DNA from: Patescibacteria group bacterium UBA3466
GTDB taxonomy: Bacteria > Patescibacteriota > Minisyncoccia > Phycocordibacterales > UBA918
Length of the DNA: 64,000 nt
Assembly (NCBI GenBank): GCA_002378195.1
Contig: DFRJ01000002.1
Location: forward strand, 204,816-268,815
Reading direction: 5' to 3'
The position numbers and the translations under genes are program-made. Below are positions 8,191-44,959 of this stretch, one piece after another (the stretch's first letter is position 1; every line of letters starts with the position of its first letter). The notes beneath the pieces were generated by a model. That model was not told the DNA's origin. It was given only the letters and a program-made list of their open reading frames with translations, and made no database searches.

Positions 8191-8202
8191 ACCAGAGTGA
8201 GC

Positions 8203-8394
8203 TTAGTGACCAGCTTCGTGCTGTACGCAACTGGGTGGCTTGTGCTGGTACTCTTCACTGCACCATTTGCCGCCGGCGCTGACAGAAGATCTGCCCAGCA
8301 TGATAAGCACTGCCAGCGAGGCAAAAATAGCAATGACTATGCCCATTTGCAGACCAGCTGACAAACCACCAGCATCAGTGTTGTTGGTAGACAT
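8203..8394 (-). CDS. Small (63 aa) membrane protein, hypothetical, GC-rich.
   Basis: One TM helix (MGIVIAIFASLAVLIML). It is followed by a terminator. Local GC is well above the window average. This is a weak call. Confidence 0.3.
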   Translation of the reverse strand: MSTNNTDAGGLSAGLQMGIVIAIFASLAVLIMLGRSSVSAGGKWCSEEYQHKPPSCVQHEAGH

Positions 8395-8448
8395 CCCATT
8401 CTCCTTTTGTTTGAGGGGTACTGCTTCAGGGCTAATTTAGCACTATCT

Positions 8449-9855
8449 TTAGCTAGTTTCAATATATCTGAGTAATGTTTTAACTGGTTCACCGGTGGCA
8501 CCTTTAACTAGTTTGTCGCCGGCGGCACTTTCCATTCGTGGTGCCATGTCGATATGGGCCCAAGGAGTCTTCTTCGGAGCGAAAAATGACAAGAAGGTAC
8601 CGCCTTCAATACAGCCTCCCCAGCGGGCAAAGTTGACTGCAATGTTAGCAATGTCGGCCCGAGTGCTCTTAAGCGAAGATTTATACTCATCCCATAAAGG
8701 TAGCGGCCACATTAAATCACCTGTGTCTTCACCAATTTCTACCAGTTTGTCTTGCAATGACTTACTCTTGGTGAGAACGGCTGATGTTTTTTGTCCAAGA
8801 GCAACTAAGGATGCTCCGGTTAAGGTGGCTACGTCAATCATGGCTTTGGGTTGATAGTATTTTTCGGCATAGGTCATAGCATCAGCCAGTACCAGTCTCC
8901 CTTCTGCATCAGTGTGCAAGATTTCGACAGTTTGTCCTGACATAGAGGTGGCGATATCACCAGCTCGCATACAGTCAGCTGAAATCGAATTCTCGGCAGC
9001 TGGAATAAGTGCTACCACATTTTTCTTTAGACCGAGTTTGGCAATGGCGCGCATGGTACCGATGACTGCTGCTCCTCCAGACATGTCCATATGCATGTCA
9101 TGCATGGCTCCTGTTGGTTTTACATTAAGGCCACCGCTATCGTAGGTGATCCCTTTTCCAATAAGTGCTACCGGTGCCGATTTTTTGGCAGCACCAAAGT
9201 ACTCGATAATTATGAGTCTTGGTTTGTCTTTTGCACCCTTCCCTACAGCGTCTAATAGCCCCATTTTGAGCTGTTTGATCTTTTTGTGATCCAACACCTT
9301 CACTTTGGCTTTTGTGCCTGAAACGGCCTTTTTTGCCGCTTCGGCTAGCTGACTCGGAGCCATGTCTTCGCCCGATGTGTTGGCAACATCTCGGGTGTAG
9401 TTTACGGCCTCTCCTGTAATAAGACCGGTCTTAAACGCCTGCTTGTCTGCTGCTTTTTTGATGCCGCAGATCATTATTTCTTTGAGAGCGTAGTCTGACT
9501 TTTTACTTTTGTAGGTTGTGAACTCGTAAGTGGCTAGTTGTAGTTGTTCAGCCAGCGTTCTGTAGTACCACTTACTACCTTTCTCTTCGAGTTTAGGGCA
9601 ACCCATTGGTCCAAGCTGGAGGGCGATATGCGTCAGTTTGTGTGACTTGGCAGCCATCACGATTGAGCGCACAAGCGTACGGTACTTCCGCACTGTCATA
9701 TCCTTCCGCTTTCCAGCTCCCATTCGGTACTCAAGCCTGCCGTCTTTTGTTTCTACTAATCGGTGCCAGTCTGGTTTGTCTTCGGTGAGTACAATTTTGA
9801 CACACTGCTTTGGTAGCTGATCGAACTCTTTGGTTGTTAAAGTGATTTTTGTCAT
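8449..9855 (-). CDS. pepA: Leucyl aminopeptidase (peptidase M17).
   Basis: NTDAEGRLVLADAMTYAE and GKGITYDSGGLNVKP are M17 active-site regions. Confidence 0.9.
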   Translation of the reverse strand: MTKITLTTKEFDQLPKQCVKIVLTEDKPDWHRLVETKDGRLEYRMGAGKRKDMTVRKYRTLVRSIVMAAKSHKLTHIALQLGPMGCPKLEEKGSKWYYRTLAEQLQLATYEFTTYKSKKSDYALKEIMICGIKKAADKQAFKTGLITGEAVNYTRDVANTSGEDMAPSQLAEAAKKAVSGTKAKVKVLDHKKIKQLKMGLLDAVGKGAKDKPRLIIIEYFGAAKKSAPVALIGKGITYDSGGLNVKPTGAMHDMHMDMSGGAAVIGTMRAIAKLGLKKNVVALIPAAENSISADCMRAGDIATSMSGQTVEILHTDAEGRLVLADAMTYAEKYYQPKAMIDVATLTGASLVALGQKTSAVLTKSKSLQDKLVEIGEDTGDLMWPLPLWDEYKSSLKSTRADIANIAVNFARWGGCIEGGTFLSFFAPKKTPWAHIDMAPRMESAAGDKLVKGATGEPVKTLLRYIETS

Positions 9856-33140: not shown

Positions 33141-34457
33141 CTAATTATTTCCCTTAAAGTACCCAATAGTCAGATTGCTTTCTACAAAAAGTTTGCTAAG
33201 TAGTTGCAGTATTTGCTTAGTGGAGATTTGCTTGAGAATGTTCGGTGTCTCTTCGTATCTTTCCCAGTGTCCTGATGCAACGTACTCGGTTAGTTCCTGA
33301 CAAATTTTCAGTGAGTGTTGTCTTGAGAAAAGTTCTTGGGTGAGAATCTGTTCCTTACTCTTTTTTATCAAGTTATCAATGGTTGATTTATCCAGTGCTG
33401 AAATAGCATGTAATACTAAACTCTCAATCTCTTCGTGTTCTTGACCCTTAGCTAAGTTGATGGATATCATACCCAGGTTTTCTTCCGAAGTCGGCTCGAT
33501 GGCGCCTGAAACACTCGATGCCTTACCAGTATCTACTAGTAATTTGTGCAGCAGGCTTTCGGCGCCGCCGGTTAATACATCCAGCATAATAGTTGTTGCA
33601 AACCACTCTTGTGAAGGGAATCCGGAATGCTTGAAGCCAATAGCCAGCAGATTTGTGGTTGACGGTCTGGTGATTGTGACGCGTCTCAGTCCCTCTTGTT
33701 TTGGCTCTCTGATTGAGAAGCGTGGAATGGCGGTCTTTGGACTACTAATGCCACTGAAATGCTTCTTCACCGCTTTTAGCGCAGTGTCTCGATCAATGTC
33801 ACCTACGACCATCATTACGGCATTGTCTGGTCGGTAATAATCTCTATAAAATTTCTCCAGTTTAGCTGGTGTATAGTCCTCAATGTCTTCACGATAACCA
33901 ATTGTTTCGTGTCCGTATGGATGAGAGTGGTAGGCCGTACTCACCATTTGTACGCTTAGTGCAAAATCAGGGTCTCCGTTGTACATATCGAACTCACTCA
34001 AAACATTACCTCGTTCAGGATTAAGCTCTTTGTCGTTAAGGATTACGCCGGTCATCCTTTCAGCTTCAATTTGCAATGCCTCATCTAGCATATCTGTTGG
34101 GTAGCTAAAATAATATGTAGTTCGATCCTTCCAGGTATTGGCATTAAGTACGCTTCCAGTATTTCTCTCAAAATTCATGCTCCAGCTGTCAGTTAAACCC
34201 CGAGCACGGTCAAAGTTGGTGGGTTTAAAAAGCATGTGCTCAAGCATGTGAGCAACTCCAGTTTCGCCTCTCGCTTCATCGCGAGCACCAACTAAGTAGG
34301 TGATGTTTGAAGTAACCACCCCAGTTTCTGGACGATTATAAAAGAGTACTCGAAGACCGTTTCTTCTCAGTCGGTATTCTTCAATACCAGATACGGTCTT
34401 TATATATTCATAACCAGCAAGTTGGGTTTTAGCTTGGTTCGCTGTTCTTTTCTTGGA
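33141..34457 (-). CDS. M16 family zinc peptidase, catalytic subunit.
   Basis: An inverted zinc motif HMLEH(x)n E: GETGVAHMLEHMLFK. The start is the MSKKRT Met, with a 29-nt overlap with the upstream HD gene. Confidence 0.8.
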   Translation of the reverse strand, partial: SKKRTANQAKTQLAGYEYIKTVSGIEEYRLRRNGLRVLFYNRPETGVVTSNITYLVGARDEARGETGVAHMLEHMLFKPTNFDRARGLTDSWSMNFERNTGSVLNANTWKDRTTYYFSYPTDMLDEALQIEAERMTGVILNDKELNPERGNVLSEFDMYNGDPDFALSVQMVSTAYHSHPYGHETIGYREDIEDYTPAKLEKFYRDYYRPDNAVMMVVGDIDRDTALKAVKKHFSGISSPKTAIPRFSIREPKQEGLRRVTITRPSTTNLLAIGFKHSGFPSQEWFATTIMLDVLTGGAESLLHKLLVDTGKASSVSGAIEPTSEENLGMISINLAKGQEHEEIESLVLHAISALDKSTIDNLIKKSKEQILTQELFSRQHSLKICQELTEYVASGHWERYEETPNILKQISTKQILQLLSKLFVESNLTIGYFKGNN

Positions 34458-35025
34458 CATCAAAAATGAAATTCTTAAACTCTTCAAAGGTCTGATTAAA
34501 TTCGTGCACAATACCATCTGACAACCGACTATTTATTGCGTTAGCTATGTTTTGATAGGCTTCGAGTTGATTTTCTAAGCTGTTGCCAAAATCCCTGAAG
34601 AAACCGTGGTGGTCATCGAAATAATCTTCAACTATACATCTAAAATTATGTGTCTTGTCGGCAGCCGACACCAAGACAGATTCTATCGGTGCTTTCTTAA
34701 GCTTCTTGGCGTAGTTTTGTTTAACTTGAAGCCAAGGGATCCGCTCGCCATTTTTGTACTCTTCTTCAGTGACGTGCTCTACAATGTTGGCTACGTTGTC
34801 ACCGAAATCAGTTTTAAGCTCCTCCAGTGTGTAATCGGTGTCTTCAATAGTGTCGTGAAGTAGCGCCGCAACGAGAGTGTCCTCATCTTCCGTATAATCG
34901 CGTAGAATCATGGTTACAGCCATTAAGTGAGTGATATAGGGTAGCGGAATGTCACCCTTACGCACTTGATCCTGATGCAATAGTGCGGCTGCTTTTATGG
35001 CTTGCTCTACTTTATAAGAGTACAT
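34429..35025 (-). CDS. HD-domain protein resembling the SpoT/Mesh1 (p)ppGpp-hydrolase domain (small alarmone hydrolase-like).
   Basis: ITHLMAVTMIL...TLVAALLHDTIEDT (the HD...HDxxED pattern of the RelA/SpoT HD domain). 198 aa. Confidence 0.6.
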   Translation of the reverse strand: MYSYKVEQAIKAAALLHQDQVRKGDIPLPYITHLMAVTMILRDYTEDEDTLVAALLHDTIEDTDYTLEELKTDFGDNVANIVEHVTEEEYKNGERIPWLQVKQNYAKKLKKAPIESVLVSAADKTHNFRCIVEDYFDDHHGFFRDFGNSLENQLEAYQNIANAINSRLSDGIVHEFNQTFEEFKNFIFDVQEKNSEPS

Positions 35026-35028
35026 AGT

Positions 35029-35373
35029 TTATATTCTTTGTAGTTCACGATGTAAAGCCTCTACATCCTTTTTTAGGTTTCTAACGGTCTGTTTCTTGCG
35101 CTCCATTGTTCTTCGGATCTGATTCGCGTCTGCAAGTAGCTTTTGGGCTTCTTCTAGCTCGGAAGCTGCATCAGGATTATCCTTATCGCGGCGTAGTTGT
35201 GACACCCGACGCTCGTAGTTGCTAATCTCACTGATAATTCTATCCTCCTCTATTATCTGCTCTACATATTGTCGCACCTCCCCTACCAAGCTCATGATAG
35301 CAGAATTTTGAATGTGGATGTCTTTTGAAGCCAGAGCAGCTGACACTTTTGCTTGTAGTTCACGTGTACTCAT
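35029..35373 (-). CDS. Hypothetical coiled-coil protein (114 aa).
   Basis: Predicted to be all coiled coil. It is translationally coupled (ATGA) to the upstream MGMT-domain gene. Confidence 0.45.
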   Translation of the reverse strand: MSTRELQAKVSAALASKDIHIQNSAIMSLVGEVRQYVEQIIEEDRIISEISNYERRVSQLRRDKDNPDAASELEEAQKLLADANQIRRTMERKKQTVRNLKKDVEALHRELQRI

Positions 35374-35639
35374 GTCTTCATAGTATATCCTTCACTCTCT
35401 AATAGTGCACGCTTCTTATCTTCACCTCCGCGATTGTAGTCTCCTAGCTGGCCATCACTTCTGATCACGCGATGACACGGTATGTTCGGATCAAAATTAT
35501 TAGCCATAACGTTGGCAACAGCTCGGTATGCTTTTGGATTGCCGGCCAATTTAGCCACTTCTTTGTAGGAGAGTACATGGCCAACCTCTATTTGGCGCAC
35601 AACATTCTTAACTCTATGTGAAAATTTCCGGCCAGCCAT
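35370..35639 (-). CDS. Stand-alone MGMT/Ogt C-terminal DNA-binding domain protein that retains the active-site Cys (PCHRV).
   Basis: VLSYKEVAKLAGNPKAYRAVANVMANN...IPCHRVIRSDGQLGDYNRGGEDKKRALLESEG. Confidence 0.7.
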   Translation of the reverse strand: MAGRKFSHRVKNVVRQIEVGHVLSYKEVAKLAGNPKAYRAVANVMANNFDPNIPCHRVIRSDGQLGDYNRGGEDKKRALLESEGYTMKT

Positions 35640-35641
35640 TA

Positions 35642-36430
35642 TTACTTTTTGACGTTAGCAAAGTGTATCGCTTGCAACTTTTTGCCAGCCGCTTCTCTAT
35701 ATGGACAATACTCGCAATCTTCCCCACACGGCGGCAAGTCCTTTCTGTCTAGGCAGGTCTTAATTTCAATTAGAGTGTCTTCTATCCACTTGGTGTCTGC
35801 TACTACTGGCACTAGTGTCGTTTCAAACTGAAGCTGATTGTTAAACGCTTCAAGGTTCTTGTCAGCATTGGCGTAAACCAAGTAGCCAGTATCTTGAACT
35901 TTGAAACCATTTTTCTCTAAGAGCCAGCGGTACACACCAAGCTGTCGAGCGTATTGCTTTTCCCAGGGTGAGTCACCTAGCTTGTCTATCGTACCTTCCT
36001 TTGAGGTCGATTTATAGTCAACAATTATCAGCTCCCCTTCGCTATTGATCCAAATATCGTCCACTCCTCCGCTTACTACGAGCCCAGTCTCGGCGTGAGT
36101 GTGGGTTATACCAACAAACGGGTCGCGCCAGGTTTCTAGATCATGGTGAGCAAATGGTACGGCCTTGATTTCGTATTTATCCATTATCGGATGAGGAGTT
36201 TTGGTTGCTCGGTACTTATCAAATTCGTTCTTAAATAGCTCATCGACCGCAATATTCAAATTGAATGATGGGAAACCTGGTCGTTTAGTCCCTAGCACAT
36301 TGTCGAGGTAAAAACACCTTGGGCACTCAAAGAAATAGTCTATTTTTGATCGTGATAACTTCCACTTCTTGCCTTTGTAATTCCACTCGGCTGATCGATT
36401 GGGATTATATCTGTATCTATATTCTGCCAT
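35642..36430 (-). CDS. Cas4/RecB-like PD-(D/E)xK nuclease with a 4Fe-4S Cys cluster (stand-alone, no CRISPR).
   Basis: An N-terminal CPRC, motif II IVDYKS, a QxxxY (EKQYARQLGVY), and a C-terminal CGEDCEYC. Confidence 0.65.
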   Translation of the reverse strand: MAEYRYRYNPNRSAEWNYKGKKWKLSRSKIDYFFECPRCFYLDNVLGTKRPGFPSFNLNIAVDELFKNEFDKYRATKTPHPIMDKYEIKAVPFAHHDLETWRDPFVGITHTHAETGLVVSGGVDDIWINSEGELIIVDYKSTSKEGTIDKLGDSPWEKQYARQLGVYRWLLEKNGFKVQDTGYLVYANADKNLEAFNNQLQFETTLVPVVADTKWIEDTLIEIKTCLDRKDLPPCGEDCEYCPYREAAGKKLQAIHFANVKK

Positions 36431-36463: not shown

Positions 36464-36492
36464 AAAAAAAGCCCGCAACTGCGGGCTTTTTT
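36464..36492. terminator. Bidirectional intrinsic terminator.
   Basis: AAAAAAA-GCCCGC-aact-GCGGGC-TTTTTT. Confidence 0.75.
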
Positions 36493-36504: not shown

Positions 36505-37050
36505 CTATTCAGCGCGGAAAGTACCAAATACTTGGTCGATCTGCACATCAGTTGCTAGGTTGAATCCACGGTCACCGTTTTCAGAGAAGATAACGATAGC
36601 GTAGTTTCGGCCTGGTGTAGTAGATCGCTGTAGAGTAATTTCAGCTGGAACTAGACCTTGTGATTCGCTAAATCGTACAACTCCCAGGATGAATCCGAGG
36701 TTGTCATTATCGTATTCGCGTACACCAATCCACCCTTCACTGATCGGGTAAGTAGCGCTTTCAAGAGCGATTGAAGCTGAGGCTGGTTGGTCGCTTACTA
36801 CCACTTCACCTTCTCCTACGGTTAGTTCTGGTGTCTCGACTGCTTCTTCAGCTGTTTCTTCGCCTTCTTCCTCGTCGCTTACTTCACCTTCTTCAGCTCC
36901 GTCTTCCATCTCAGTTGCTTCGTTCTCGACTTCGGCAACTGGGGCTGTTGCGGTTGGGCCTGAAAATGCCCAGACAAGCATTCCTCCTATAAGTAGTCCG
37001 ACGATAAAAGCGACTAAAGTCTTTTGTCCGTCTTGTGTTTCTTCTGCCAT
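36505..37050 (-). CDS. Hypothetical membrane-anchored protein with an acidic E-rich linker and a C-terminal beta-rich domain.
   Basis: An N-terminal TM helix. The EEGE repeats explain the Leu/Arg-rich antisense ORF 36771..36992. Confidence 0.5.
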   Translation of the reverse strand: MAEETQDGQKTLVAFIVGLLIGGMLVWAFSGPTATAPVAEVENEATEMEDGAEEGEVSDEEEGEETAEEAVETPELTVGEGEVVVSDQPASASIALESATYPISEGWIGVREYDNDNLGFILGVVRFSESQGLVPAEITLQRSTTPGRNYAIVIFSENGDRGFNLATDVQIDQVFGTFRAE

Positions 37051-37144
37051 ACAATAATGTTTATGATTGCTGAATTAAATAATACCGTGAGTATATCACA
37101 GCAAAAAATGGCTGAAACGTTGACAATTTAAGTAAAATGAATGC

Positions 37145-37978
37145 TTATTTCTGACCGCAGAGCAATCTGGCTTCCTGCATCAAGGCTTCATGTTTTCGTT
37201 TTGGTAAATGTAAATGTCTAAGAACAGCCTCGTGCTCAAGAATGTCACGACACAAGATAATATCGCGAGCAATCAAGGTTTCTGCTTGCGAAGCCGATAA
37301 ATTTTGTAGAACTGTAACCGGGTAGACTCCAGCTCGCTGAATTTGGTCGTGCAGGTTATTGTTTTTGGGATAATCCCAGCTTAGCATTTTGAGGCCCACG
37401 CAACGGCCATAATCTTGCGCAGTACTTGTAAATTTTGTGTTTGTAATTAACCAAAACTCGCCTATGCCGCACACATCGGCATTACAGATTTTTTTATTTT
37501 TGAGATCCAAAAGTCTTGCATATGAATACATGGCCACTTGTAGATCAGATTTTATTCCCGGTCGAGCGTGAAATTTAGCTTCTCCGATGAAGCTGTGCTC
37601 TTCGTTGTAGGCGGCCAGGTCTATTTCGTGCGGAGCGCAGTTACCCTGAAGGGTGACGCCAGTCTTAGTTGTGTAGCCTTCTGCCTCGTACAATTTTGCT
37701 AAAAACTTTTCGAAAGGAAATCCAGTTGGTCCGAGATTAAATAGGGCTCGTCTTAGTGAGTAGCGAGCAGCAGCTGGTGGTCGGCTGTTCCGCAATAGCG
37801 AAAAGGCGTGACGATATATCTCCTGCGTTTGAACTCCGTCATATAAGGTCTTGTTAACCTCGGCAACTATTTCGTTGATTTCGTGCGGATCTGCTCCGGC
37901 GCGGCGTAGTGATCGTCTGAGTTTTTCAACTTTAAAGAACTCGGCTGTGCCATCAGCCTTGGTGATAGTTACTGACAT
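37145..37978 (-). CDS. ATP-cone domain fused to an Mrr-type (PD-(D/E)xK) restriction-endonuclease catalytic domain.
   Basis: An N-terminal ATP-cone (VTITKADGTAEFFKVEKLRRSLRRAG...EIVAEVNKTL). Mrr_cat-like HEIDLAAY...FIGEAKFH...FWLITNTKFTSTAQDYG. Its ATG overlaps the mnmA stop (TAATG). Confidence 0.6.
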   Translation of the reverse strand: MSVTITKADGTAEFFKVEKLRRSLRRAGADPHEINEIVAEVNKTLYDGVQTQEIYRHAFSLLRNSRPPAAARYSLRRALFNLGPTGFPFEKFLAKLYEAEGYTTKTGVTLQGNCAPHEIDLAAYNEEHSFIGEAKFHARPGIKSDLQVAMYSYARLLDLKNKKICNADVCGIGEFWLITNTKFTSTAQDYGRCVGLKMLSWDYPKNNNLHDQIQRAGVYPVTVLQNLSASQAETLIARDIILCRDILEHEAVLRHLHLPKRKHEALMQEARLLCGQK

Positions 37979-39027
37979 TAACCAATTATACCACCTCCGA
38001 TACAGTGACTGCCTTTGTATAGTACACAGGATTGGCCGATTGCCGGCTTGTCTACTTCGTCTAGGGTATTGAGAGTTATCGCATCACTTGTCACATCAGT
38101 AATCTTGACCACGAACGGTTCTTGTCTGTAGCGAAACTGTGCTTCAAGGTTGGATCCCGACTGAACGTTTTTCCGTAATGACAGTGAGTGCAATCTTATC
38201 TGATTAGTTGAGTTGAGCTGTGGCTTGTGTGGCGATACTGTGATGGTGTTGTTGTGTAAATCACGATCAGTCACATACATGGCGCTCCGGTTATTGTCAT
38301 CAGTTTCGAGAGTAAAGCCGTGTCTTTGGCCTAGCGTGTAAACCAGTGCCCCTTTGTGACTACCTATAATCTTACCTTCATTATTCAAAACGCTGCCAGG
38401 CTCTAGGGTGGTGTAATGGGAAATGAACTCGGGGATATCTACATGGCCCAAGAAGCAGATGCCCTGACTATCTTTCTTGGTGGCCGTTGGTATGCCAGCT
38501 TGTTCTGCTTCTTGTCTGATTTTATCCTTTGCAGTATCTCCAACTGGGAGCAAGCTCATTCTTAGTTGCTCGTTTGATAGGGTCCATAGGAAATAAGTCT
38601 GGTCTTTATTCTGGTCTACCCCCCGATGCATTTCATTATTGATTTTTTGTGCGTAGTGTCCGGTGGCAATAAAGTCAGCATTATTGTCTTTTGCAAACTG
38701 CAAGAAGGCGCCAAACTTTACGTGCTGATTGCACATCACATCAGGGTTTGGGGTGCGCCCAGCCGTGTACTCGGCAATGAAGTAATCAGCGACATCAATC
38801 TTGTAGGCTTCCTCAGCGTCGCAAGTTAGGAAAGGTATATCAAGGTGAGCGGCCACTCGCATGGCATCAAGTCGCTCCTGCTCCCAATTGCAAACCATAA
38901 AATCAGGGTGCCAGACCTTGATAAATACCCCCACGACGTTATAGCCCTGTTTTTTGAGTCTAAGGGCAGCGACTGAAGAGTCTACGCCGCCTGATAGTCC
39001 TACAAATACTGTCTGGTTCTTTGTCAT
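37978..39027 (-). CDS. mnmA: tRNA 2-thiouridylase MnmA.
   Basis: PP-loop VGLSGGVDSSV, and GRTPNPDVMCN with the catalytic Cys. Confidence 0.9.
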   Translation of the reverse strand: MTKNQTVFVGLSGGVDSSVAALRLKKQGYNVVGVFIKVWHPDFMVCNWEQERLDAMRVAAHLDIPFLTCDAEEAYKIDVADYFIAEYTAGRTPNPDVMCNQHVKFGAFLQFAKDNNADFIATGHYAQKINNEMHRGVDQNKDQTYFLWTLSNEQLRMSLLPVGDTAKDKIRQEAEQAGIPTATKKDSQGICFLGHVDIPEFISHYTTLEPGSVLNNEGKIIGSHKGALVYTLGQRHGFTLETDDNNRSAMYVTDRDLHNNTITVSPHKPQLNSTNQIRLHSLSLRKNVQSGSNLEAQFRYRQEPFVVKITDVTSDAITLNTLDEVDKPAIGQSCVLYKGSHCIGGGIIG

Positions 39028-39042
39028 GGTGAAAACTTAGCA

Positions 39043-40044
39043 CTATCGTAGGTAGACATCAATATTCCGTAAGTGTTGTTGATAAGTTTCCGCATAGTGA
39101 AATTCACCGTCGTTGTCAGTTATGTAATAAAAGTAATCTGATTCAGCTGGTTGCAGTACGGCTGAAATTGCCTCTAGGCCTGGATTACCGATGGGGGTGG
39201 GCGGCAGTCCCGGATACAAGTAAGTATTGTATGGCGTATCAATTTCTAAGTCGGCGGGTGTCAATTCCGCCAGTGGCTTATCGAGAACGTATTCAATCGA
39301 GGCATCAGCTTGTAGAGCCATCCCTATTTCTAGTCGATTTTGGAGTGCGCTAGAGACATAGCGCATAGATTCTGGAGTGTCGGCTTCTCTCTCGATAATT
39401 GATGCCAGTATTAGTATCTCATCAAGGGTTAGGGTATGGTTTTTAATTGCCTCTTGGTAGGGTTTAAGTGTCTTATCAAACAGCTCTCGCATATGACGAT
39501 ACAAGTCTTCAGCCGTAAAATTCTCTGTTAAGAAATATGTTTCCGGATATAACTTGCCTTCGTCAGGTTCGGCAATTTCGACAAATTCGGCTGCGTCAAA
39601 GTTAGGGAGTACCTCCGCTGCTCTTTTCGCTATCTGAGTCACTCTTTCACCCTCAAAATGCGTGAAGCGGATAAGGTTGTTACCAAAATCTCCCTCAACG
39701 AGTCGTTCTGCTACTTCGATTGTATTAAGTTTGGCCTCAAACACGTAAGTGCTGGCCTTTATATCGGTGGGTTCGTACAGCAGCACTAGGGTGAGATAGA
39801 GCAGGTCAGCCGATCCGACCACCTGCTGCACTTCGAGACTGTTGGTGATAGTTCTGACATCCGCGCCACTTTCTATTGTGATTGGTTCGTCTACAGGAAA
39901 ATCCGCTGGTGCAACCCCAAGCCTTAAGATCTGGTAAGTGATAAAAATGCCGCCCAGAACAACGAAAGCAAACATAATAGCCGCTAGTTTTATCAGCTTT
40001 CTAAGTAGTGAAATTTTTTCAACGGGTATTTCTTGCTCGGGCAT
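39043..40044 (-). CDS. mltG: Endolytic murein transglycosylase MltG (YceG family).
   Basis: An N-terminal TM helix. YNTYLYPGLPPTPIGNPGLEAI is a YceG signature. Confidence 0.85.
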   Translation of the reverse strand: MPEQEIPVEKISLLRKLIKLAAIMFAFVVLGGIFITYQILRLGVAPADFPVDEPITIESGADVRTITNSLEVQQVVGSADLLYLTLVLLYEPTDIKASTYVFEAKLNTIEVAERLVEGDFGNNLIRFTHFEGERVTQIAKRAAEVLPNFDAAEFVEIAEPDEGKLYPETYFLTENFTAEDLYRHMRELFDKTLKPYQEAIKNHTLTLDEILILASIIEREADTPESMRYVSSALQNRLEIGMALQADASIEYVLDKPLAELTPADLEIDTPYNTYLYPGLPPTPIGNPGLEAISAVLQPAESDYFYYITDNDGEFHYAETYQQHLRNIDVYLR

Positions 40045-40045
40045 G

Positions 40046-41422
40046 CTAATTCATTTCTCCAGTCGGTAGGTTCGATGGCGCTTCCTTTCTGGTATTTTCT
40101 ACTCGACCTAAGCCTGGAGTAAGAATACTTGAACCAGGGATGTGGTATATGGTGGCTAGTTCTTCTACCGAAAATATTTTCTCCTCATCAGCTCTTGATA
40201 TTTTTTCCGCGGCTAGGTAATAGCGTGCTTTATACATTTCGAGTTCTTCTTTTTTCATGGCGGTTAGTCGATTGCCAGAAATGTCAGAAAAGAACTTATA
40301 GTTAAAGTCGGTTCGCCAACGAACTCCGATAGCGTTGCGACCAACAATGTCATACTGCCCAAAAGTACGCAACATCGGCGCGATCATATTAGGGTCAAAC
40401 TTGCCTGTTTCCACAATGTAAATAGCTCTAATCGCGGTGTAAAAAGCGTATTTTCCGTAATTTCTTTCGATGGCGGCGATGGTGTCACGTTCGCCAGCAG
40501 TAAGAAGTGGTCGATTGTCACTGTCTTCAATAGCACCAATATTCTGATCTCGTTTCATTAATTTGTCTACTTCTGCCATAGCGGCCTCGCTCCAGTCTTT
40601 CACTGGACTAGCAAATGGCCATAGCTTGCCTTCCTTAAAGCCCATAGCTGTGTGTGGTGTCATGAGAATCTGAATCCACACCCTCTCATGTGGCTTCGCC
40701 TTACCAAGATACTCAATCATGGCTGACATTGGATCATATTTCTCCTCCTCCTTAGGCATCTTGTCTAGGCCAAAATCAACGTAAGTCTTAATTGGGTAGA
40801 CCTCATCCTTTTTCTTGCCCATGTGGAAGGAGATCATTTCCCATTTATCTGGATCCCACACCACCTCCCCGGTGTAGTCCACCTCTTCTTCCACGACTTC
40901 TATACCAGGATACTGAGCGTACAGTTGCGTTTCCAGGGCATCCTTTACTTTACTGCGCGGTACATTGGCATAAAATCTTACATCACCCCCAATTGACACT
41001 AACTCGAGACTATTAACCAGCGGATGTTTTCCATCTAAATAGGTTTGCATCACGTTATCGCGGCTGTTTACCTGATGCATCTGCGTCAGTACACTTTCCA
41101 TGGCTTCAGGTGATTTAAATACTTCCTGTGGCAGCTTAATGCGCAGAGTCACTCTGCCCATGCGGTAGCGGTACTTTTCTTCGACTGACCACATCCACTG
41201 CTCAAAAGCGATGTACGCAAGCGCCATCGGTAGCCAGATTGGTGAGGTGGCGATGATAAAGGTCAGGATGGGACGAAGATCCACGTCCAGCACTGACATC
41301 ATTTTAAATAGTACAAAAAAGCACAATAACAAAAGCGCTGGTGCAGCAATGGCACCAATGTATGACTTAAGTGTTCGTGTCATGTTGGTATTGTACACCA
41401 CAAACAAAGAGCGTCTGGACAT
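40046..41422 (-). CDS. Hypothetical 2-TM membrane protein (458 aa) with a large soluble domain.
   Basis: There are no recognisable motifs. It lies directly downstream (2-nt... 24-nt gap) of the sigma-r4/HARE-HTH gene. Confidence 0.5.
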   Translation of the reverse strand: MSRRSLFVVYNTNMTRTLKSYIGAIAAPALLLLCFFVLFKMMSVLDVDLRPILTFIIATSPIWLPMALAYIAFEQWMWSVEEKYRYRMGRVTLRIKLPQEVFKSPEAMESVLTQMHQVNSRDNVMQTYLDGKHPLVNSLELVSIGGDVRFYANVPRSKVKDALETQLYAQYPGIEVVEEEVDYTGEVVWDPDKWEMISFHMGKKKDEVYPIKTYVDFGLDKMPKEEEKYDPMSAMIEYLGKAKPHERVWIQILMTPHTAMGFKEGKLWPFASPVKDWSEAAMAEVDKLMKRDQNIGAIEDSDNRPLLTAGERDTIAAIERNYGKYAFYTAIRAIYIVETGKFDPNMIAPMLRTFGQYDIVGRNAIGVRWRTDFNYKFFSDISGNRLTAMKKEELEMYKARYYLAAEKISRADEEKIFSVEELATIYHIPGSSILTPGLGRVENTRKEAPSNLPTGEMN

Positions 41423-41446
41423 TTGTCCAGACGCTCTTTGTTTGTT

Positions 41447-42472
41447 TTAGTCAGCTATAGCAAATGTTCCATTTGATAGCTTCTTGAAGAGATTGGTGTC
41501 CTGGAGGTTTACTAAGATGGTGTTGTCTTTGACGTAACGTTCCTTTCTTACCTTATCGATGATTTCTTCTCGTGAGAGAGGACCTTCGGTTTGGAGAATT
41601 TCTCGTAAAACATCTTTTACCACACCAGCTGTGTAACCCCATTCAGTTAGAGCGTACAATCCTCGGCCTACTAGTACGAATCGTTCGTCCTTGATCAGCT
41701 CGTTGTGAGTGGTGGCAACGTGGGCCTTGTGACCGAATAGCTCATTGATAGTTTCTGCTACTTCTCGGAAGTGCATTGGTGATCCGTGGCGCTTAACTGC
41801 TAGGTAAGCGTAGTCACGAATGCCCTTTACTCGGATGTTTGGGCTGTCAGCTGGGCCCCAGTCTCCTAGCGGATTTCGTCCAATTTCTTTTGAGATTGAA
41901 AGCCATCGCTTGAGTACTTCTTCGTTGTGAGCTTCTGCCATATCTGACAGCTCAGTTTTGAATCGGCTGATGATTTCACTCTCGCTGACTAGTTCGTCGC
42001 GACTTAGTCCTTTTCGTACATTTTTTAGCGCTTTTTCAACATTGTCTGCGACTCGTCGTTCAGTAAACCAACGGTGAGCATACTGCGGGTTCTCCTTGCT
42101 CTTGTAGAAAGGATCGCCGACCACTAGTAAGAAATATAGGTGGTTTCGGGTTGTTTCGTCTGTAGTAAGCTCGTCAAGTAGAACGTGCTCAGCGATGATA
42201 CCGCCGCCCAATTCATCAATAAGCTTTTGCAGCTCAATGAATAGCTCATAGTGCTTCTTGTAGACTTCAGACTTTTGGATAGATTGAATACCGTAGTTCT
42301 CAATTTGTCTTACACGCTCACGCGTAATTCCGTATGATTGCCCAATCGCTTCAAGTGTGAAAGATTCACCTTTAGCGTTTAGTCCGTAACGCTTTTCTAG
42401 TACGTCACGAGCTCGCTCTGGAAGTACATCTAACAGAGTCTTACTGATTTGTTTAGGTTTAAATGAAATCAT
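41447..42472 (-). CDS. DNA-binding protein with an N-terminal sigma-70 region-4-like HTH and a C-terminal HARE-HTH-like (RpoE-delta-like) winged helix.
   Basis: LPERARDVLEKRYGLNAKGESFTLEAIGQSYGITRERVRQIE (sigma r4 pattern). The C-terminus MHFREVAETINELF...ERFVLVGRGLYALTEWGY has the HARE-HTH pattern. Confidence 0.55.
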   Translation of the reverse strand: MISFKPKQISKTLLDVLPERARDVLEKRYGLNAKGESFTLEAIGQSYGITRERVRQIENYGIQSIQKSEVYKKHYELFIELQKLIDELGGGIIAEHVLLDELTTDETTRNHLYFLLVVGDPFYKSKENPQYAHRWFTERRVADNVEKALKNVRKGLSRDELVSESEIISRFKTELSDMAEAHNEEVLKRWLSISKEIGRNPLGDWGPADSPNIRVKGIRDYAYLAVKRHGSPMHFREVAETINELFGHKAHVATTHNELIKDERFVLVGRGLYALTEWGYTAGVVKDVLREILQTEGPLSREEIIDKVRKERYVKDNTILVNLQDTNLFKKLSNGTFAIAD

Positions 42473-42577: not shown

Positions 42578-44959
42578 CTACTCTTTTACTATTAAATTCA
42601 ATATTCTGCCAGGCACATATATCACTTTCATAATTTCTTTCTGATGCAAACGAGCCATTAAAACATCGACTTTCTTTACCAATTCCAGAGCTTCACCCTC
42701 GCTCGCTGTCGGAGAAAGAGTGATCTCACCACGCATTTTACCGTTAATTTGCACGCCAATTGTAACTTCTTTGTCTCTGGCCAGACTTTCGTCGTATTCT
42801 GGGTACGGGCTGGAATGTATACTACCTTCAAGGTCGTATACAGACCAAATTTCTTCTGTTAAATGAGGTGCGAATGGTGCCAGTAATTTTACTAAAGTGA
42901 GGTAGCTTTCCTTGGTCAGATTCTCCTTCTCAGCTTTGTTTACGTAGACCATCATGGCGCTAATCGCAGTATTGAATTTAAATTCAGCGATATCGTAGCG
43001 TACTTTTTTGATTGTCTTGTGGAGCAAAGATGTCATCTCCTCGCTTTCTTCTTGCGCTATATGCTCTCCTAGTCCATACACTCGCTCCAGGAAGCGCCTG
43101 AGACCCACCACACCATTTGGATCCCAGGGGTAGCTATTGTCTTCATAAGGCCCCATAAAAGCTAAGTAAAGCTTTACTGTGTCGGCCCCAACACTCTTCA
43201 CTTGTTCGTCAGGATCGACCACATTACCCTTACTTTTACTCATCTTGTTACCATCCGGGCCCAGAATCATGCCGTGGTTCGCTCGCTTCAAGTATGGTTC
43301 ATTGTGCGTCACAAGCCCAAGCCTATGAAGCGCCTTTTGCCAGAAGCGAGAATACAAAAGGTGCATGGTAGTGTGCTCAGCCCCACCAAAATACATGTCT
43401 ACCTGCATCCAGCTTTTTTGAGCCTCCGGACTAACCAAGTTGTCTTTATTTTGATTATCTAGATAACGCAGGAAATACCACGAAGAATCTACGAAGGTAT
43501 CCATTGTCTCCACTTCTGGCGTCCAGCCTTCGCCAAATATTTCTTCGGTTCGGGCTTTCAGCTCAGCAGATTTAGCGAGCGGCGCTTCACCGGTTGGCTT
43601 GAAATCTACATCTTCTGGCAGGGTCCATGGCAGGTGTTCCTCTGGTACTGGATGTGCCTTTCCTTCCGGGTCATAGACAATTGGGATTGGTACTCCCCAG
43701 TAACGTTGTCTACCAATTGACCAGTCACGAAGGCGGTATGTGTTAGTCATTCGCCCACCAACTTCTTTCACAATATTCTCTTTTGCCTCTTCTGACGAAA
43801 GTCCGTCAAATTTTCCTGAGCTGATTAATGTGCCCATTCCAGCGTAAGGAAGTTCCTCGCCACCCGCCACTACCTGCTTTACTTCAATTCCAAACTTCTG
43901 CGCAAAGGCGAAGTCTCGCTCATCATGAGCTGGTACTGCCATAATCGCACCGGTTCCATAGCCTGCTAGTACGTAGTCTGCAATATACACTGGGATTTCT
44001 TCTCCGCTTGCTGGGTTGGTTGCGGAAACACCTTCAAGTTTCACCCCGGTTTTTTCCTTGGTGTTGTCCTGTCGGTCTCGCTCGTCCTTCTGTCTGCTAG
44101 CCTCAATATACGCCTCTACCTCCGACCAGTTTGCAATATCATCTTTATATTTTTGCACCAACTCGTGCTCAGGCGCGAGTACCATGTATGTCGCCCCAAA
44201 TAGTGTGTCGGGACGCGTCGTGAAAACTGTTACCTTCTGGCCGAAAGACAGCTCAAAATCAATCTCGGCTCCTTCGCTACGGCCGATCCAATTGCGCTGG
44301 GCATCCTTAATGTGTTCTGGCCAGTTGAGATCTTCAAGATCATCGATCAAATCGTCTGCGAAGTCAGTGATTTTTAGCATCCACTGTGGCATTTTCTTTT
44401 TCTCTACTATTGCGCCTGAACGTTCTGAAGTACCATCTGGAAGTACCTGTTCGTTTGCAATAACAGTATTATCAATTGGATCCCAGTTAACGATTGCTTC
44501 ACCACGGTACGCTAAGTCGTTTTTGAAAAACTCAGTGAACATCCATTGTGTCCATTTGTAGTATTCAGGATCGGTTGAGGAAGTGGTTTTATCCCATGAA
44601 AAAGCATTGCCCATGCTGTCTAATTGGGAGCGCATGTACTCGATGTTCTTTTCCGTCCATTCTCTTGGGTTGAGGTTGTGCTTAATGGCTGCGTTTTCTG
44701 CTGGTAGTCCAAAAGCATCAAAACCCATTGGATACAGCACCTGATTACCTAGCATTCGTTTATAGCGCACATAGATATCTGGCACAGCGAAGGCGTACCA
44801 GTGTCCAATATGCAGGTTCCCAGATGGATAGGGCCACTCTACGAGCACGTATTCCTTTTCCTTATTGTCGTCGCGCTCACCAGCGTCATAGAGACCGTTC
44901 TCCTTCCATTTCTCTTGCCACTTACTTTCAATTGCCTGGTGATCAAAACGTTTATGCAT
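42578..44959 (-). CDS. leuS: Leucyl-tRNA synthetase.
   Basis: PYPSGNLHIGHWY (HIGH), KMSKSKGN, and a CP1 editing domain. Confidence 0.95.
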   Translation of the reverse strand: MHKRFDHQAIESKWQEKWKENGLYDAGERDDNKEKEYVLVEWPYPSGNLHIGHWYAFAVPDIYVRYKRMLGNQVLYPMGFDAFGLPAENAAIKHNLNPREWTEKNIEYMRSQLDSMGNAFSWDKTTSSTDPEYYKWTQWMFTEFFKNDLAYRGEAIVNWDPIDNTVIANEQVLPDGTSERSGAIVEKKKMPQWMLKITDFADDLIDDLEDLNWPEHIKDAQRNWIGRSEGAEIDFELSFGQKVTVFTTRPDTLFGATYMVLAPEHELVQKYKDDIANWSEVEAYIEASRQKDERDRQDNTKEKTGVKLEGVSATNPASGEEIPVYIADYVLAGYGTGAIMAVPAHDERDFAFAQKFGIEVKQVVAGGEELPYAGMGTLISSGKFDGLSSEEAKENIVKEVGGRMTNTYRLRDWSIGRQRYWGVPIPIVYDPEGKAHPVPEEHLPWTLPEDVDFKPTGEAPLAKSAELKARTEEIFGEGWTPEVETMDTFVDSSWYFLRYLDNQNKDNLVSPEAQKSWMQVDMYFGGAEHTTMHLLYSRFWQKALHRLGLVTHNEPYLKRANHGMILGPDGNKMSKSKGNVVDPDEQVKSVGADTVKLYLAFMGPYEDNSYPWDPNGVVGLRRFLERVYGLGEHIAQEESEEMTSLLHKTIKKVRYDIAEFKFNTAISAMMVYVNKAEKENLTKESYLTLVKLLAPFAPHLTEEIWSVYDLEGSIHSSPYPEYDESLARDKEVTIGVQINGKMRGEITLSPTASEGEALELVKKVDVLMARLHQKEIMKVIYVPGRILNLIVKE

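What the first reader, a model, noticed from the sequence alone, without database searches (positions are those of the whole stretch)
37145..37980. ATP-cone::Mrr-type restriction-endonuclease fusion, translationally coupled to mnmA
An allosteric nucleotide-sensing ATP-cone domain, as found in NrdR and class I/III RNR, is fused to a PD-(D/E)xK Mrr_cat nuclease domain (EAKFH core, TNTKFT). Such fusions imply a nuclease gated by the (d)ATP pool, which would fit a phage-defence or nucleotide-stress effector. It has no methyltransferase partner. Its ATG overlaps the stop of the tRNA-thiolation gene mnmA (TAATG), so it is co-expressed with housekeeping tRNA modification. This candidate system is uncharacterised.
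Basis: partly seen in the sequence, partly recalled or inferred. Interest (0 to 1): 0.6.

Follow-up and report, generated by a model that had tools for sequence, protein, structure and literature searches.

The report
ATP-cone-gated nuclease, conserved core gene
A small bacterial gene fuses a sensor for ATP/dATP to a DNA-cutting enzyme; it is real, untested in the laboratory and widespread, but it looks like a conserved housekeeping or energy-stress nuclease and not an anti-phage weapon.

Summary
The ORF is real: window 37145..37978, minus strand, 277 aa. Its ATG overlaps the mnmA stop (TAATG).

It has three domains, not two:
- A C-terminal helix-hairpin-helix domain resembling the Rad51 N-terminal domain.

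Mrr_cat is below threshold for this protein (15.3 bits against 21), but relatives pass it.

The defence reading is not supported:
- There is no PADLOC hit and no phage or viral homologue.
- In Paceibacteria (CPR) the gene sits in a fixed block, DUF8128-mltG-mnmA-X-181aa-Cas4-like-MGMT.
- It lies downstream of mnmA in 6 of 6 loci chosen through mnmA alone.
- It is more conserved than mnmA (74% against 66% mean identity).

In Bacteroidota, Chlamydiota and Acidobacteriota the homologue heads operons with several partners. These are a beta-CASP nuclease (40 of 45 loci), an AMP-phosphorylase-like enzyme, a PRPP-synthetase-like enzyme, PPK2, P-type ATPases, universal stress proteins and Hsp20.

Best reading: an adenine-nucleotide-gated endonuclease for nucleic-acid turnover or nucleotide economy. 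The substrate and the direction of gating are unknown. I found no paper describing the fusion.

The parts
37145..37978 (-). Whole ORF, 277 aa plus stop: ATP-cone + PD-(D/E)xK nuclease + HhH domain (AF1548 family)
   Evidence: AlphaFold model has pLDDT 96.6 and pTM 0.92.
37748..37969 (-). ATP-cone domain, residues 4-77. The model shows a beta-hairpin (E4-6, E12-14) followed by a helical bundle.
37331..37729 (-). PD-(D/E)xK nuclease core, about residues 84-216 (AF1548 N-domain, Mrr_cat-like)
37709..37711 (-). E90 codon, helix acidic residue of the active site
   Evidence: Invariant in 106 representatives. Codon read.
37619..37621 (-). D120 codon (motif H-E-I-D). Equivalent to AF1548 D38.
   Evidence: Invariant. 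Aligned to the AF1548 EID motif. AF1548 D38, E51 and K53 were predicted catalytic in PMC1821046.
37574..37582 (-).
   Evidence: E133 and K135 are invariant. Codons checked on the sequence.
37166..37324 (-). C-terminal AF1548-like_C domain, residues 219-271, helix-hairpin-helix type
37976..37980 (-). TAATG: mnmA stop overlapping the ATG of the nuclease gene
   Evidence: The same overlap, or a gap of at most 17 nt, occurs in 20 of 33 related loci.
37978..39027 (-). mnmA (tRNA 2-thiouridine synthase), upstream gene of the same transcription unit
39043..41422 (-). mltG/YceG (39043..40044) and the DUF8128 protein (40046..41422 as listed; true start probably ATG at 41383), upstream genes of the probable operon
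   Evidence: Order conserved.
36505..37050 (-). 181-aa acidic protein with an N-terminal hydrophobic segment. It is always the next gene downstream in the close relatives. A strong terminator-like hairpin follows at 36465-36492.

Best explanation
The gene encodes a three-domain enzyme of the AF1548 family. The N-terminal ATP-cone binds an adenine nucleotide (ATP and/or dATP). The central domain is a metal-dependent PD-(D/E)xK endonuclease. The C-terminal helix-hairpin-helix domain holds duplex nucleic acid by its backbone, without sequence specificity.

By analogy with every characterised ATP-cone (RNR, NrdR), nucleotide occupancy most likely changes oligomeric state or domain packing and so switches cutting on or off.

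In this Patescibacteria (Paceibacteria) genome it is a fixed, vertically inherited core gene. It is co-transcribed and often translationally coupled with mnmA and mltG. It is not a mobile defence gene.

In other phyla the same protein heads operons for nucleic-acid and nucleotide breakdown and for low-energy survival. I therefore infer that the family couples nucleic-acid cleavage to the cell's adenylate or dNTP status (turnover or salvage of nucleic acid when energy or nucleotides are short).

Shown: domains, intact active site, conservation, synteny, operon partners. Inferred: nucleotide binding, gating, the physiological role. Unknown: DNA or RNA as substrate, and which nucleotide state activates.

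For: Core-gene status in Paceibacteria:
- The syntenic block is conserved in about 36 Patescibacteria loci, down to 42-48% identity.
- Mean identity to the window among 22 close loci: this gene 73.6%, mnmA 65.5%, mltG 54.6%.
- The best non-self hit is 87% identical, against 72% for mnmA.
- In 6 of 6 loci picked through mnmA alone, this gene is directly downstream.

Against a defence or mobile role: no PADLOC, phage or viral match.

Context elsewhere:
- A beta-CASP/RMMBL nuclease lies directly downstream in 40 of 45 non-CPR loci.
- An archaeal-type thymidine/AMP-phosphorylase-like gene and a Prs-family gene follow in Criblamydia, Pontibacter, Saprospiraceae, a JGI Bacteroidota contig and a Pyrinomonadaceae MAG.
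- PPK2, AAA_28, P-type ATPases, MgtC, PFK, phosphoketolase, acetate kinase, tandem Usp genes and Hsp20 are nearby.
- A gene trio with the same annotations (MBL fold, Prs, TP family) is induced by microoxia in Bradyrhizobium diazoefficiens at both protein and transcript level (PMC6515984 Table 2).
Against: - No biochemical data exist for any member.
- The stress and nucleotide-catabolism partners are absent from the CPR loci, so the role is transferred from relatives only 38-48% identical.
- The cone lacks the equivalents of NrdA R10 (A8 here, a family-wide 'KA') and K91. Nucleotide specificity may therefore differ, or binding could be weak.
- Conserved gene order in small CPR genomes can persist without any functional link.
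- In Bacteroidota the module often lies in metal-resistance islands and on plasmids. There it is accessory, and 'core gene' holds only for the CPR clade.
- It is not known whether Bradyrhizobium has the nuclease next to its MBL/Prs/TP trio (one search found nothing).
Confidence: 0.5

Rival explanations
1. It is a DNA repair or recombination nuclease. On this reading it cuts specific DNA structures or lesions (like NucS/EndoMS, Hjc or XPF, which pair a nuclease with a DNA-binding module), and the ATP-cone ties repair to the dATP/ATP pool.
Against: Outside the CPR the conserved partners are metabolic or stress genes and a CPSF-like beta-CASP with an 'RNA specificity' domain. They are not repair genes. 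The fold matches to NucS and Hjc are generic for PD-(D/E)xK cores.
Confidence: 0.22
2. It is a phage-defence effector. On this reading it is a stand-alone Mrr-like type IV restriction or abortive-infection nuclease, unleashed when phage infection perturbs the (d)ATP pool.
Against: No PADLOC model matches. No phage or viral-contig homologue was found. The gene has a fixed position in a housekeeping block in every sampled Paceibacteria relative, including 6 of 6 mnmA-anchored loci. It is more conserved than mnmA. Neighbours elsewhere are stress or metabolic genes, not defence genes. It lacks the Mrr N-terminal winged-helix domain that reads modified DNA.
Confidence: 0.07
3. It is an RNA-directed nuclease acting on tRNA or rRNA. 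The coupling to mnmA, and to a CPSF-like beta-CASP RNase in other phyla, would reflect stable-RNA processing or decay, for example ribosome or tRNA turnover in dormancy.
For: The mnmA-to-gene adjacency and frequent stop/start overlap are conserved. The beta-CASP partner carries the RMMBL 'RNA specificity' domain and scores best against Cas14 (372 bits) and aCPSF1 (275 bits) models. Downstream enzymes act on ribonucleotides or ribose phosphates.
Against: HhH domains and Mrr/AF1548-type cores are typical of DNA enzymes (general knowledge). The mnmA link is confined to the CPR lineage and is absent in Bacteroidota. This rival overlaps with the best explanation, which leaves the substrate open.
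Confidence: 0.15
4. It is a non-catalytic regulator: an NrdR-like, nucleotide-controlled DNA-binding repressor that reuses a nuclease fold only for binding.
For: NrdR shows that an ATP-cone can control DNA binding (structures 9fzf and 7p37). An HhH DNA-binding domain is present.
Against: All four catalytic residues (E90, D120, E133, K135) are invariant across 106 representatives that share only about 40% identity. That is the signature of an active enzyme.
Confidence: 0.03

Closest known systems
AF1548 of Archaeoglobus fulgidus (PDB 1Y88), a structural-genomics protein of unknown function
   Different: AF1548 is 199 aa and has no ATP-cone. Its function is also untested, so the match names the fold and family, not the activity.
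NrdR and the ATP-cones of class I/III ribonucleotide reductases
   Different: The output domain is a nuclease, not a reductase or a zinc ribbon. The 'KR' of the cone is 'KA' across this family, and the C-terminal Lys (NrdA K91) is missing. No link to nrd genes was seen in any neighbourhood.
Mrr / type IV modification-dependent restriction endonucleases (Pfam Mrr_cat)
   Same: Same catalytic fold and motif order (E...D...ExK, then T-x-T-x-F). Relatives pass the Mrr_cat threshold.
   Different: The window protein itself is below threshold. It has no Mrr_N winged-helix reader domain. Its distribution and conservation are unlike restriction genes.
Can2 / Card1 (CARF-sensor PD-(D/E)xK nucleases of type III CRISPR)
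   Different: The sensor is a different fold (CARF binding cyclic oligoadenylate, against ATP-cone). No CRISPR or other defence context was found here.
XPF/Mus81/Hef-type nucleases (PD-(D/E)xK-type core followed by an (HhH)2 domain)
   Same: Same order of nuclease core and C-terminal HhH DNA-binding module. This comparison rests on general knowledge plus the HhH matches.

Membership tests
ATP-cone domain (PF03477) | Profile match above Pfam's gathering score | tested here: met
   34.2 bits against 25.8, residues 4-77.
ATP-cone domain (PF03477) | Fold: N-terminal beta-hairpin capping a four-helix bundle | tested here: met
ATP-cone domain (PF03477) | Conservation of nucleotide-contacting residues (E. 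coli NrdA K9, R10, E15, K21, T55, H59, K91; positions from established RNR literature, recalled not retrieved) | tested here: inconclusive
   K7, E13, K19 and T51 are kept, and K7, K19 and T51 are invariant or at least 90% conserved. R10 is replaced by A8, H59 by Y55 and K91 by P84.
ATP-cone domain (PF03477) | Binds ATP and/or dATP and changes oligomeric state | not testable with these tools
   Needs purified protein (ITC, SEC-MALS or mass photometry with and without nucleotides).
PD-(D/E)xK nuclease superfamily | Catalytic acidic residues and Lys in the order E...(P)D...(D/E)xK on the alpha-beta-beta-beta-alpha-beta core | tested here: met
AF1548-like family (PDB 1Y88; Pfam PF22357 C-terminal domain) | Sequence and structural homology over both AF1548 domains | tested here: met
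Mrr-type (type IV) restriction endonuclease | Mrr_cat (PF04471) match above the gathering score | tested here: inconclusive
   The window protein scores 15.3 bits against 21, which is not met. Full-length homologues meet it at 21.3-40.7 bits.
Mrr-type (type IV) restriction endonuclease | N-terminal winged-helix (Mrr_N) domain that reads modified DNA | tested here: not met
   The N-terminus is an ATP-cone. No Mrr_N hit appears in Pfam.
Mrr-type (type IV) restriction endonuclease | Modification-dependent DNA cleavage that restricts phage or foreign DNA | not testable with these tools
   Requires enzymology and phage assays.
Known anti-phage defence systems (PADLOC-DB v2) | Match to any defence-protein model | tested here: not met
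   No families at E up to 1.
Known anti-phage defence systems (PADLOC-DB v2) | Patchy, variable, island-like distribution with defence or mobile neighbours | tested here: not met
   The position is fixed in a housekeeping block. The gene is present in 6 of 6 mnmA-anchored loci and is more conserved than mnmA. Neighbours carry no defence domains.

The most novel reading that the evidence does not exclude
The ATP-cone nuclease is the energy- or nucleotide-sensing trigger of a widespread, undescribed pathway for recycling nucleic acid. When adenylate charge falls, it nicks or cuts cellular or imported nucleic acid. A beta-CASP exonuclease then releases nucleotides. An AMP-phosphorylase-like enzyme, a Prs-like enzyme and PPK2 convert these into ribose phosphates, PRPP and NTPs. 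In free-living bacteria this would serve survival of hypoxia or dormancy. In CPR bacteria, which cannot make nucleotides de novo, the nuclease would have become an indispensable core gene.
Probability: 0.3. Interest if true: 0.78.

Novelty: new variant of a known kind. Interest (0 to 1): 0.58.

Why it matters
As far as I know and could find, ATP-cones have been studied experimentally only as regulators of ribonucleotide reduction, in RNR subunits and NrdR. A nuclease under ATP-cone control would extend this allosteric module to nucleic-acid cleavage.

The family is large. More than 7,900 sequence clusters match at E below 1e-20, and 429 of the 50%-identity clusters match at E below 1e-30. One domain pair already has a crystal structure, yet the family has no known function.

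Two features make it worth testing:
- It is one of the most conserved genes in its block in Paceibacteria. These organisms are known for minimal metabolism and dependence on scavenged nucleotides (PMC5113843). It may therefore be a missing piece of CPR nucleotide economy.
- In culturable Bacteroidota and other phyla it heads operons with a beta-CASP nuclease, an AMP-phosphorylase-like enzyme, a Prs-like enzyme and PPK2, inside clusters rich in universal stress proteins and Hsp20. A similarly annotated enzyme trio is microoxia-induced in Bradyrhizobium. This gives a concrete, testable route by which dormant cells might turn nucleic acid into nucleotides or energy.

It also corrects an easy mis-annotation ('restriction endonuclease', 'ATPase', 'Holliday junction resolvase').

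Tried and rejected
- Defence. PADLOC, phage records and viral contigs searched with the family profile were all empty. The defence reading was rejected as the main explanation.
- NCBIfam has no model for the protein.
- Literature searches found no description of the fusion. I searched 'AF1548', 'ATP-cone' with 'restriction endonuclease', 'ATP-cone' with 'nuclease', 'ATP cone domain-containing protein', and combinations with thymidine phosphorylase or universal stress protein. The only relevant item was the 2007 GOS paper predicting AF1548 to be a restriction endonuclease.
- The B. cenocepacia lxa-locus paper was checked as a possible direct precedent. It lists similar USP, Hsp20, acetate kinase and ATPase content but none of the nuclease, MBL, TP or Prs genes. 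It serves only as an analogy.
- The Bradyrhizobium supplements were searched for an adjacent ATP-cone gene, with no hit.
- The metagenome-contig scan with the Criblamydia homologue returned only 4 short loci and added nothing.
- I looked for a beta-CASP, TP-family or Prs partner in the window and in the CPR loci. None was found, so the operon partnership cannot be shown for this genome.
- I could not read model coordinates. Whether the cone occludes the active site, and whether the near-invariant C114, H117 and C193 cluster together, remains unchecked.
Full report
**1. The observation.**
The window has one long ORF at 37145..37978 on the minus strand, 277 aa, starting with ATG. The gene upstream on the same strand (37978..39027) is mnmA. 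It scores 378 bits against NCBIfam PRK00143 (cutoff 284) and carries all three Pfam MnmA domains. The reverse complement of 37976-37980 reads TAATG, so the ATG of the ORF shares its A with the mnmA stop codon.

Pfam finds an ATP-cone at residues 4-77 (34.2 bits, gathering score 25.8). Mrr_cat reaches only 15.3 bits (cutoff 21) and covers only residues 86-125.

Residues 92-275 are nevertheless clearly homologous to the crystal structure of Archaeoglobus AF1548 (1y88_A, E 1.2e-31). Full-length relatives of the window protein pass the Mrr_cat threshold (21.3-40.7 bits). The 'Mrr-type' call is therefore right at family level and marginal for this sequence.

**2. Anatomy.**
An alignment of 106 representatives drawn from 50%-identity clusters has a mean column identity of 40%. 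Its invariant residues are K7, G83, G86, F89, E90, G112, E118, D120, E133, K135, R155, D158, N180, W201 and P220.

E90, D120 and E133-x-K135 form the PD-(D/E)xK active site. D120, E133 and K135 align with the AF1548 EID and ECK motifs. That study (PMC1821046) predicted D38, E51 and K53 to be catalytic. I checked the codons on the sequence.

- For the core, generic PD-(D/E)xK enzymes (NucS 10.3, an XisH-like protein 10.0, Can2 9.6, AspBHI, FokI, Card1, Hjc).

In the alignment to E. coli NrdA printed, K7, E13, K19, L20 and T51 fall on NrdA K9, E15, K21, I22 and T55. From the RNR literature I recall these as contacting ATP/dATP. K7, K19 and T51 are invariant or at least 90% conserved in the family. 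NrdA R10, H59 and K91 correspond to A8, Y55 and P84, and the 'KA' is family-wide. Nucleotide binding is therefore likely, but specificity may differ from RNR cones.

**3. How big and how old the family is.**
Against 1.84 billion cluster representatives, 1201 match at E below 1e-3 and 429 at E below 1e-30. Almost all are about 280 aa and aligned end to end. A profile search returned more than 7,900 90%-identity clusters at E below 1e-20. Sources name them 'ATPase', 'restriction endonuclease', 'ATP cone domain-containing protein' or 'Holliday junction resolvase'.

The three-domain architecture is therefore stable and widespread. It occurs in Patescibacteria, Bacteroidota, Balneolaceae, Acidobacteriota and Chlamydiota. 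I found no paper that describes it.

**4. Its status in its own lineage.**
The window comes from a marine (TARA) Patescibacteria genome. The closest relatives are labelled Kaiserbacteria, Nomurabacteria or Paceibacteria.

A tblastn of the window's neighbours against 80 genome loci shows a conserved block. In order it is: sigma70_r4/HARE-HTH protein, DUF8128, mltG, mnmA, this gene, a 181-aa acidic protein, a Cas4-like PDDEXK_1 nuclease, MGMT, an HD_4 hydrolase and two M16 peptidases. The block is kept in all 22 close loci. Its core is kept in about 14 more distant Patescibacteria loci that share only 41-48% identity in this protein.

Mean identity to the window among the close loci:

| Gene | Mean identity |
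|---|---|
| Sigma-like protein | 81.7% |
| This gene | 73.6% |
| Cas4-like nuclease | 72.5% |
| mnmA | 65.5% |
| DUF8128 | 56.1% |
| mltG | 54.6% |

In the whole database the best non-self relative is 87% identical, against 72% for mnmA.

The loci above were all found through the nuclease itself. To remove that selection bias, I picked six mnmA homologues without regard to the nuclease. All six have the ATP-cone/AF1548-like gene directly downstream.

The junction with mnmA is a stop/start overlap or a gap of at most 17 nt in 20 of 33 loci, 58-116 nt in 8, and 540-890 nt in 5.

Terminator-like hairpins lie after the sigma-like gene (41401-41444) and after the 181-aa gene (36465-36492). The likely transcription unit is therefore DUF8128-mltG-mnmA-nuclease, with or without the 181-aa gene.

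This is how a fixed, vertically inherited gene under strong purifying selection behaves. It is not the behaviour of a defence gene. In line with that, PADLOC has no match. No phage record or viral contig encodes a relative. No methyltransferase or defence domain occurs among about 20 neighbouring genes.

**5. What the relatives' neighbourhoods say.**
In 40 of 45 non-CPR loci the gene is followed at once, often with overlapping stop and start, by a 455-465-aa beta-CASP metallo-beta-lactamase carrying the RMMBL domain. Its best NCBIfam scores are against Cas14 (372 bits) and aCPSF1 (275 bits), both below cutoff. It is thus a CPSF-like nuclease of no named family.

In Flavobacteriaceae three or four tandem double-Usp genes precede the pair. 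Hsp20-like and thioredoxin-like proteins (recognised from sequence only), an MscS-like channel and P-type ATPases are nearby.

Other contexts:
- On a Criblamydia plasmid and a Pontibacter plasmid the operon is nuclease, beta-CASP, an archaeal-type ~505-aa thymidine-phosphorylase-family protein, then a Prs-family protein. The phosphorylase scores 679 bits against NF003338 and 506 against the AMP-phosphorylase model (cutoff 535). The Prs-family protein scores 401 bits against PRK07199. In Criblamydia the flanking genes are a P-type ATPase, phosphoketolase, glycogen phosphorylase and acetate kinase.
- A Pyrinomonadaceae MAG has nuclease, TP-like, Prs-like, CopA.
- A Saprospiraceae genome has 2-hydroxyacid dehydrogenase, P-type ATPase, nuclease, MgtC, PPK2, beta-CASP, TP-like, Prs-like.
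- Other Bacteroidota contigs add PFK, NDH-2, PPK2, AAA_28 and Usp.
- Many of these clusters sit inside metal-efflux islands.

An MBL / Prs / TP-family trio with the same annotations (bll3115-3117) is induced by 0.5% oxygen in Bradyrhizobium diazoefficiens. Protein log2 fold changes are 2.9, 4.4 and 2.1, and transcript fold changes are 15.4, 7.7 and 5.1 (PMC6515984 Table 2). The USP, Hsp20, acetate kinase and ATPase content also recalls the low-oxygen lxa locus of B. cenocepacia (PMC3721108). This is an analogy only, because that paper lists none of the four module genes.

**6. Most likely mechanism.**
*Shown.* The protein is a three-domain enzyme with an intact PD-(D/E)xK site, a cone whose nucleotide-contacting lysines and threonine are conserved, and an HhH module.

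*Inferred.* Adenine-nucleotide occupancy of the cone changes assembly or domain packing, as it does in RNR and NrdR, and so gates cleavage of duplex nucleic acid bound by the HhH domain.

*Role.* The operon partners in four phyla act on nucleic acid, nucleotides, ribose phosphates and polyphosphate, and they travel with low-energy stress genes. From that I infer that the family couples nucleic-acid cleavage to adenylate or dNTP status: turnover or salvage of nucleic acid when energy or nucleotides run short.

CPR bacteria have minimal biosynthesis and use nucleoside-salvage routes (PMC5113843). In them such an enzyme could be indispensable, which would explain its fixation and slow evolution.

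I put about 0.5 on this functional reading as a whole and about 0.9 on the anatomy.

*Not resolved.* DNA or RNA as the substrate, which nucleotide state activates, and whether the mnmA coupling reflects function or only inherited gene order.

**7. Rivals.**
- A dATP/ATP-tuned DNA repair nuclease (0.22). It fits the HhH domain and the nearby Cas4-like and MGMT genes, but not the partners elsewhere.
- An RNA-directed nuclease (0.15). It overlaps with the best reading, which leaves the substrate open.
- Phage defence (0.07). The evidence against it is given above.
- A catalytically dead regulator (0.03). The invariant active site argues against it.

**8. Comparison with what is known, and novelty.**
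It is a member of the AF1548 family and of the PD-(D/E)xK superfamily, and it carries a bona fide ATP-cone. It is not a demonstrable Mrr-type restriction enzyme: it lacks Mrr_N, scores below threshold, and has the wrong population behaviour.

It works like other sensor-gated PD-(D/E)xK nucleases such as Can2 and Card1, but with a sensor previously tied to ribonucleotide reduction.

The architecture is already in databases, so the gene itself is not a discovery. A nuclease controlled by an ATP-cone, its core status in Paceibacteria and its operon logic in other phyla appear undescribed. I rate it a new variant of a known kind, with interest 0.58.

Noticed in passing
window 41401-41444 (both strands), next to 41383 and 41422: A perfect 20-bp inverted repeat with a 4-nt loop lies just after the stop of the sigma70_r4/HARE-HTH gene. 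The ATG listed as the start of the DUF8128 ORF (41422) lies inside its loop. The real start is probably the ATG at 41383 (MTRTLK...). On the minus strand no T-run follows the hairpin, so it may be a binding site or an RNA structure and not a simple terminator.
   Followed up: partly
window 41447-42472 (-): A 341-aa protein has sigma-70 region 4 at its N-terminus and a HARE-HTH domain like that of RNAP delta in its C-terminal third. It is the most conserved gene of the block (mean 82% identity in close relatives, 55% in distant ones). The architecture is unusual and the protein is presumably associated with RNA polymerase.
   Followed up: partly
window 35370-36430 (-): A Cas4/AddB-like PDDEXK_1 nuclease (262 aa, 72.5% mean identity, as conserved as the ATP-cone nuclease) is followed by an 89-aa MGMT-type protein with a PCHR motif. 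The pair keeps its place two genes downstream of the ATP-cone nuclease across Paceibacteria. It may be a small DNA-repair cluster.
   Followed up: partly
window 36505-37050 (-); possible promoter at 37090-37098 (-): A 181-aa protein with an N-terminal hydrophobic segment and a very acidic linker always follows the nuclease gene in close relatives. It has no strong family match (one relative has a weak DUF7282 hit). A possible extended -10 (TGaTATACT) lies in the 94-nt gap upstream, so it may have its own promoter.
   Followed up: partly
window 34429-35025 (-): A stand-alone 198-aa HD_4 protein resembles the hydrolase domain of RelA/SpoT (84 bits against TIGR00691) and may be a small alarmone hydrolase. 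As listed by the ORF listing, its 3' end overlaps the start of the M16 peptidase ORF.
   Followed up: no
residues C114, H117, C193 of the ORF (window about 37400-37639, -): Two cysteines and a histidine outside the catalytic motif are at least 90% conserved across the family. Both cysteines are also present in AF1548, where H117 is Q. They could form a metal site, a redox switch or a disulfide near the active site. I could not check this without model coordinates.
   Followed up: no
L059, L060, L073, L075, L077 (Aequorivita, Altibacter and other Flavobacteriales), about 8200-9600 (-): A second, convergently oriented paralogue of the ATP-cone nuclease (41-46% identity to the Criblamydia homologue used as tblastn query) lies just beyond the beta-CASP gene.
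   Followed up: no
L042:5563-5967 and the equivalent position in 8 other Flavobacteriaceae loci: A conserved 134-aa protein with no Pfam or NCBIfam match sits immediately upstream of the nuclease gene or one gene further up. Two further conserved unknowns (139 aa, often in 2-3 tandem copies, and a 212-aa lipoprotein-like protein) follow the beta-CASP gene.
   Followed up: partly
L081, L087, L088, L089, L092, L078: Outside the CPR, the nuclease/beta-CASP module is repeatedly embedded in heavy-metal efflux islands (CusA/CusB, HMBD, CopA, MerC, multicopper oxidase). It sits next to Ca/Mg-type P-type ATPases and once next to MgtC, and it occurs on two plasmids. A link to metal or Mg2+/ATP homeostasis is possible but unexplored.
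   Followed up: partly
L091:3027-5401 against window 42578-44959: In a TARA scaffold that carries the identical nuclease protein, the leucyl-tRNA synthetase gene is called as two ORFs (375 + 419 aa). The window has one 793-aa ORF. This is probably an assembly frameshift in that scaffold.
   Followed up: no
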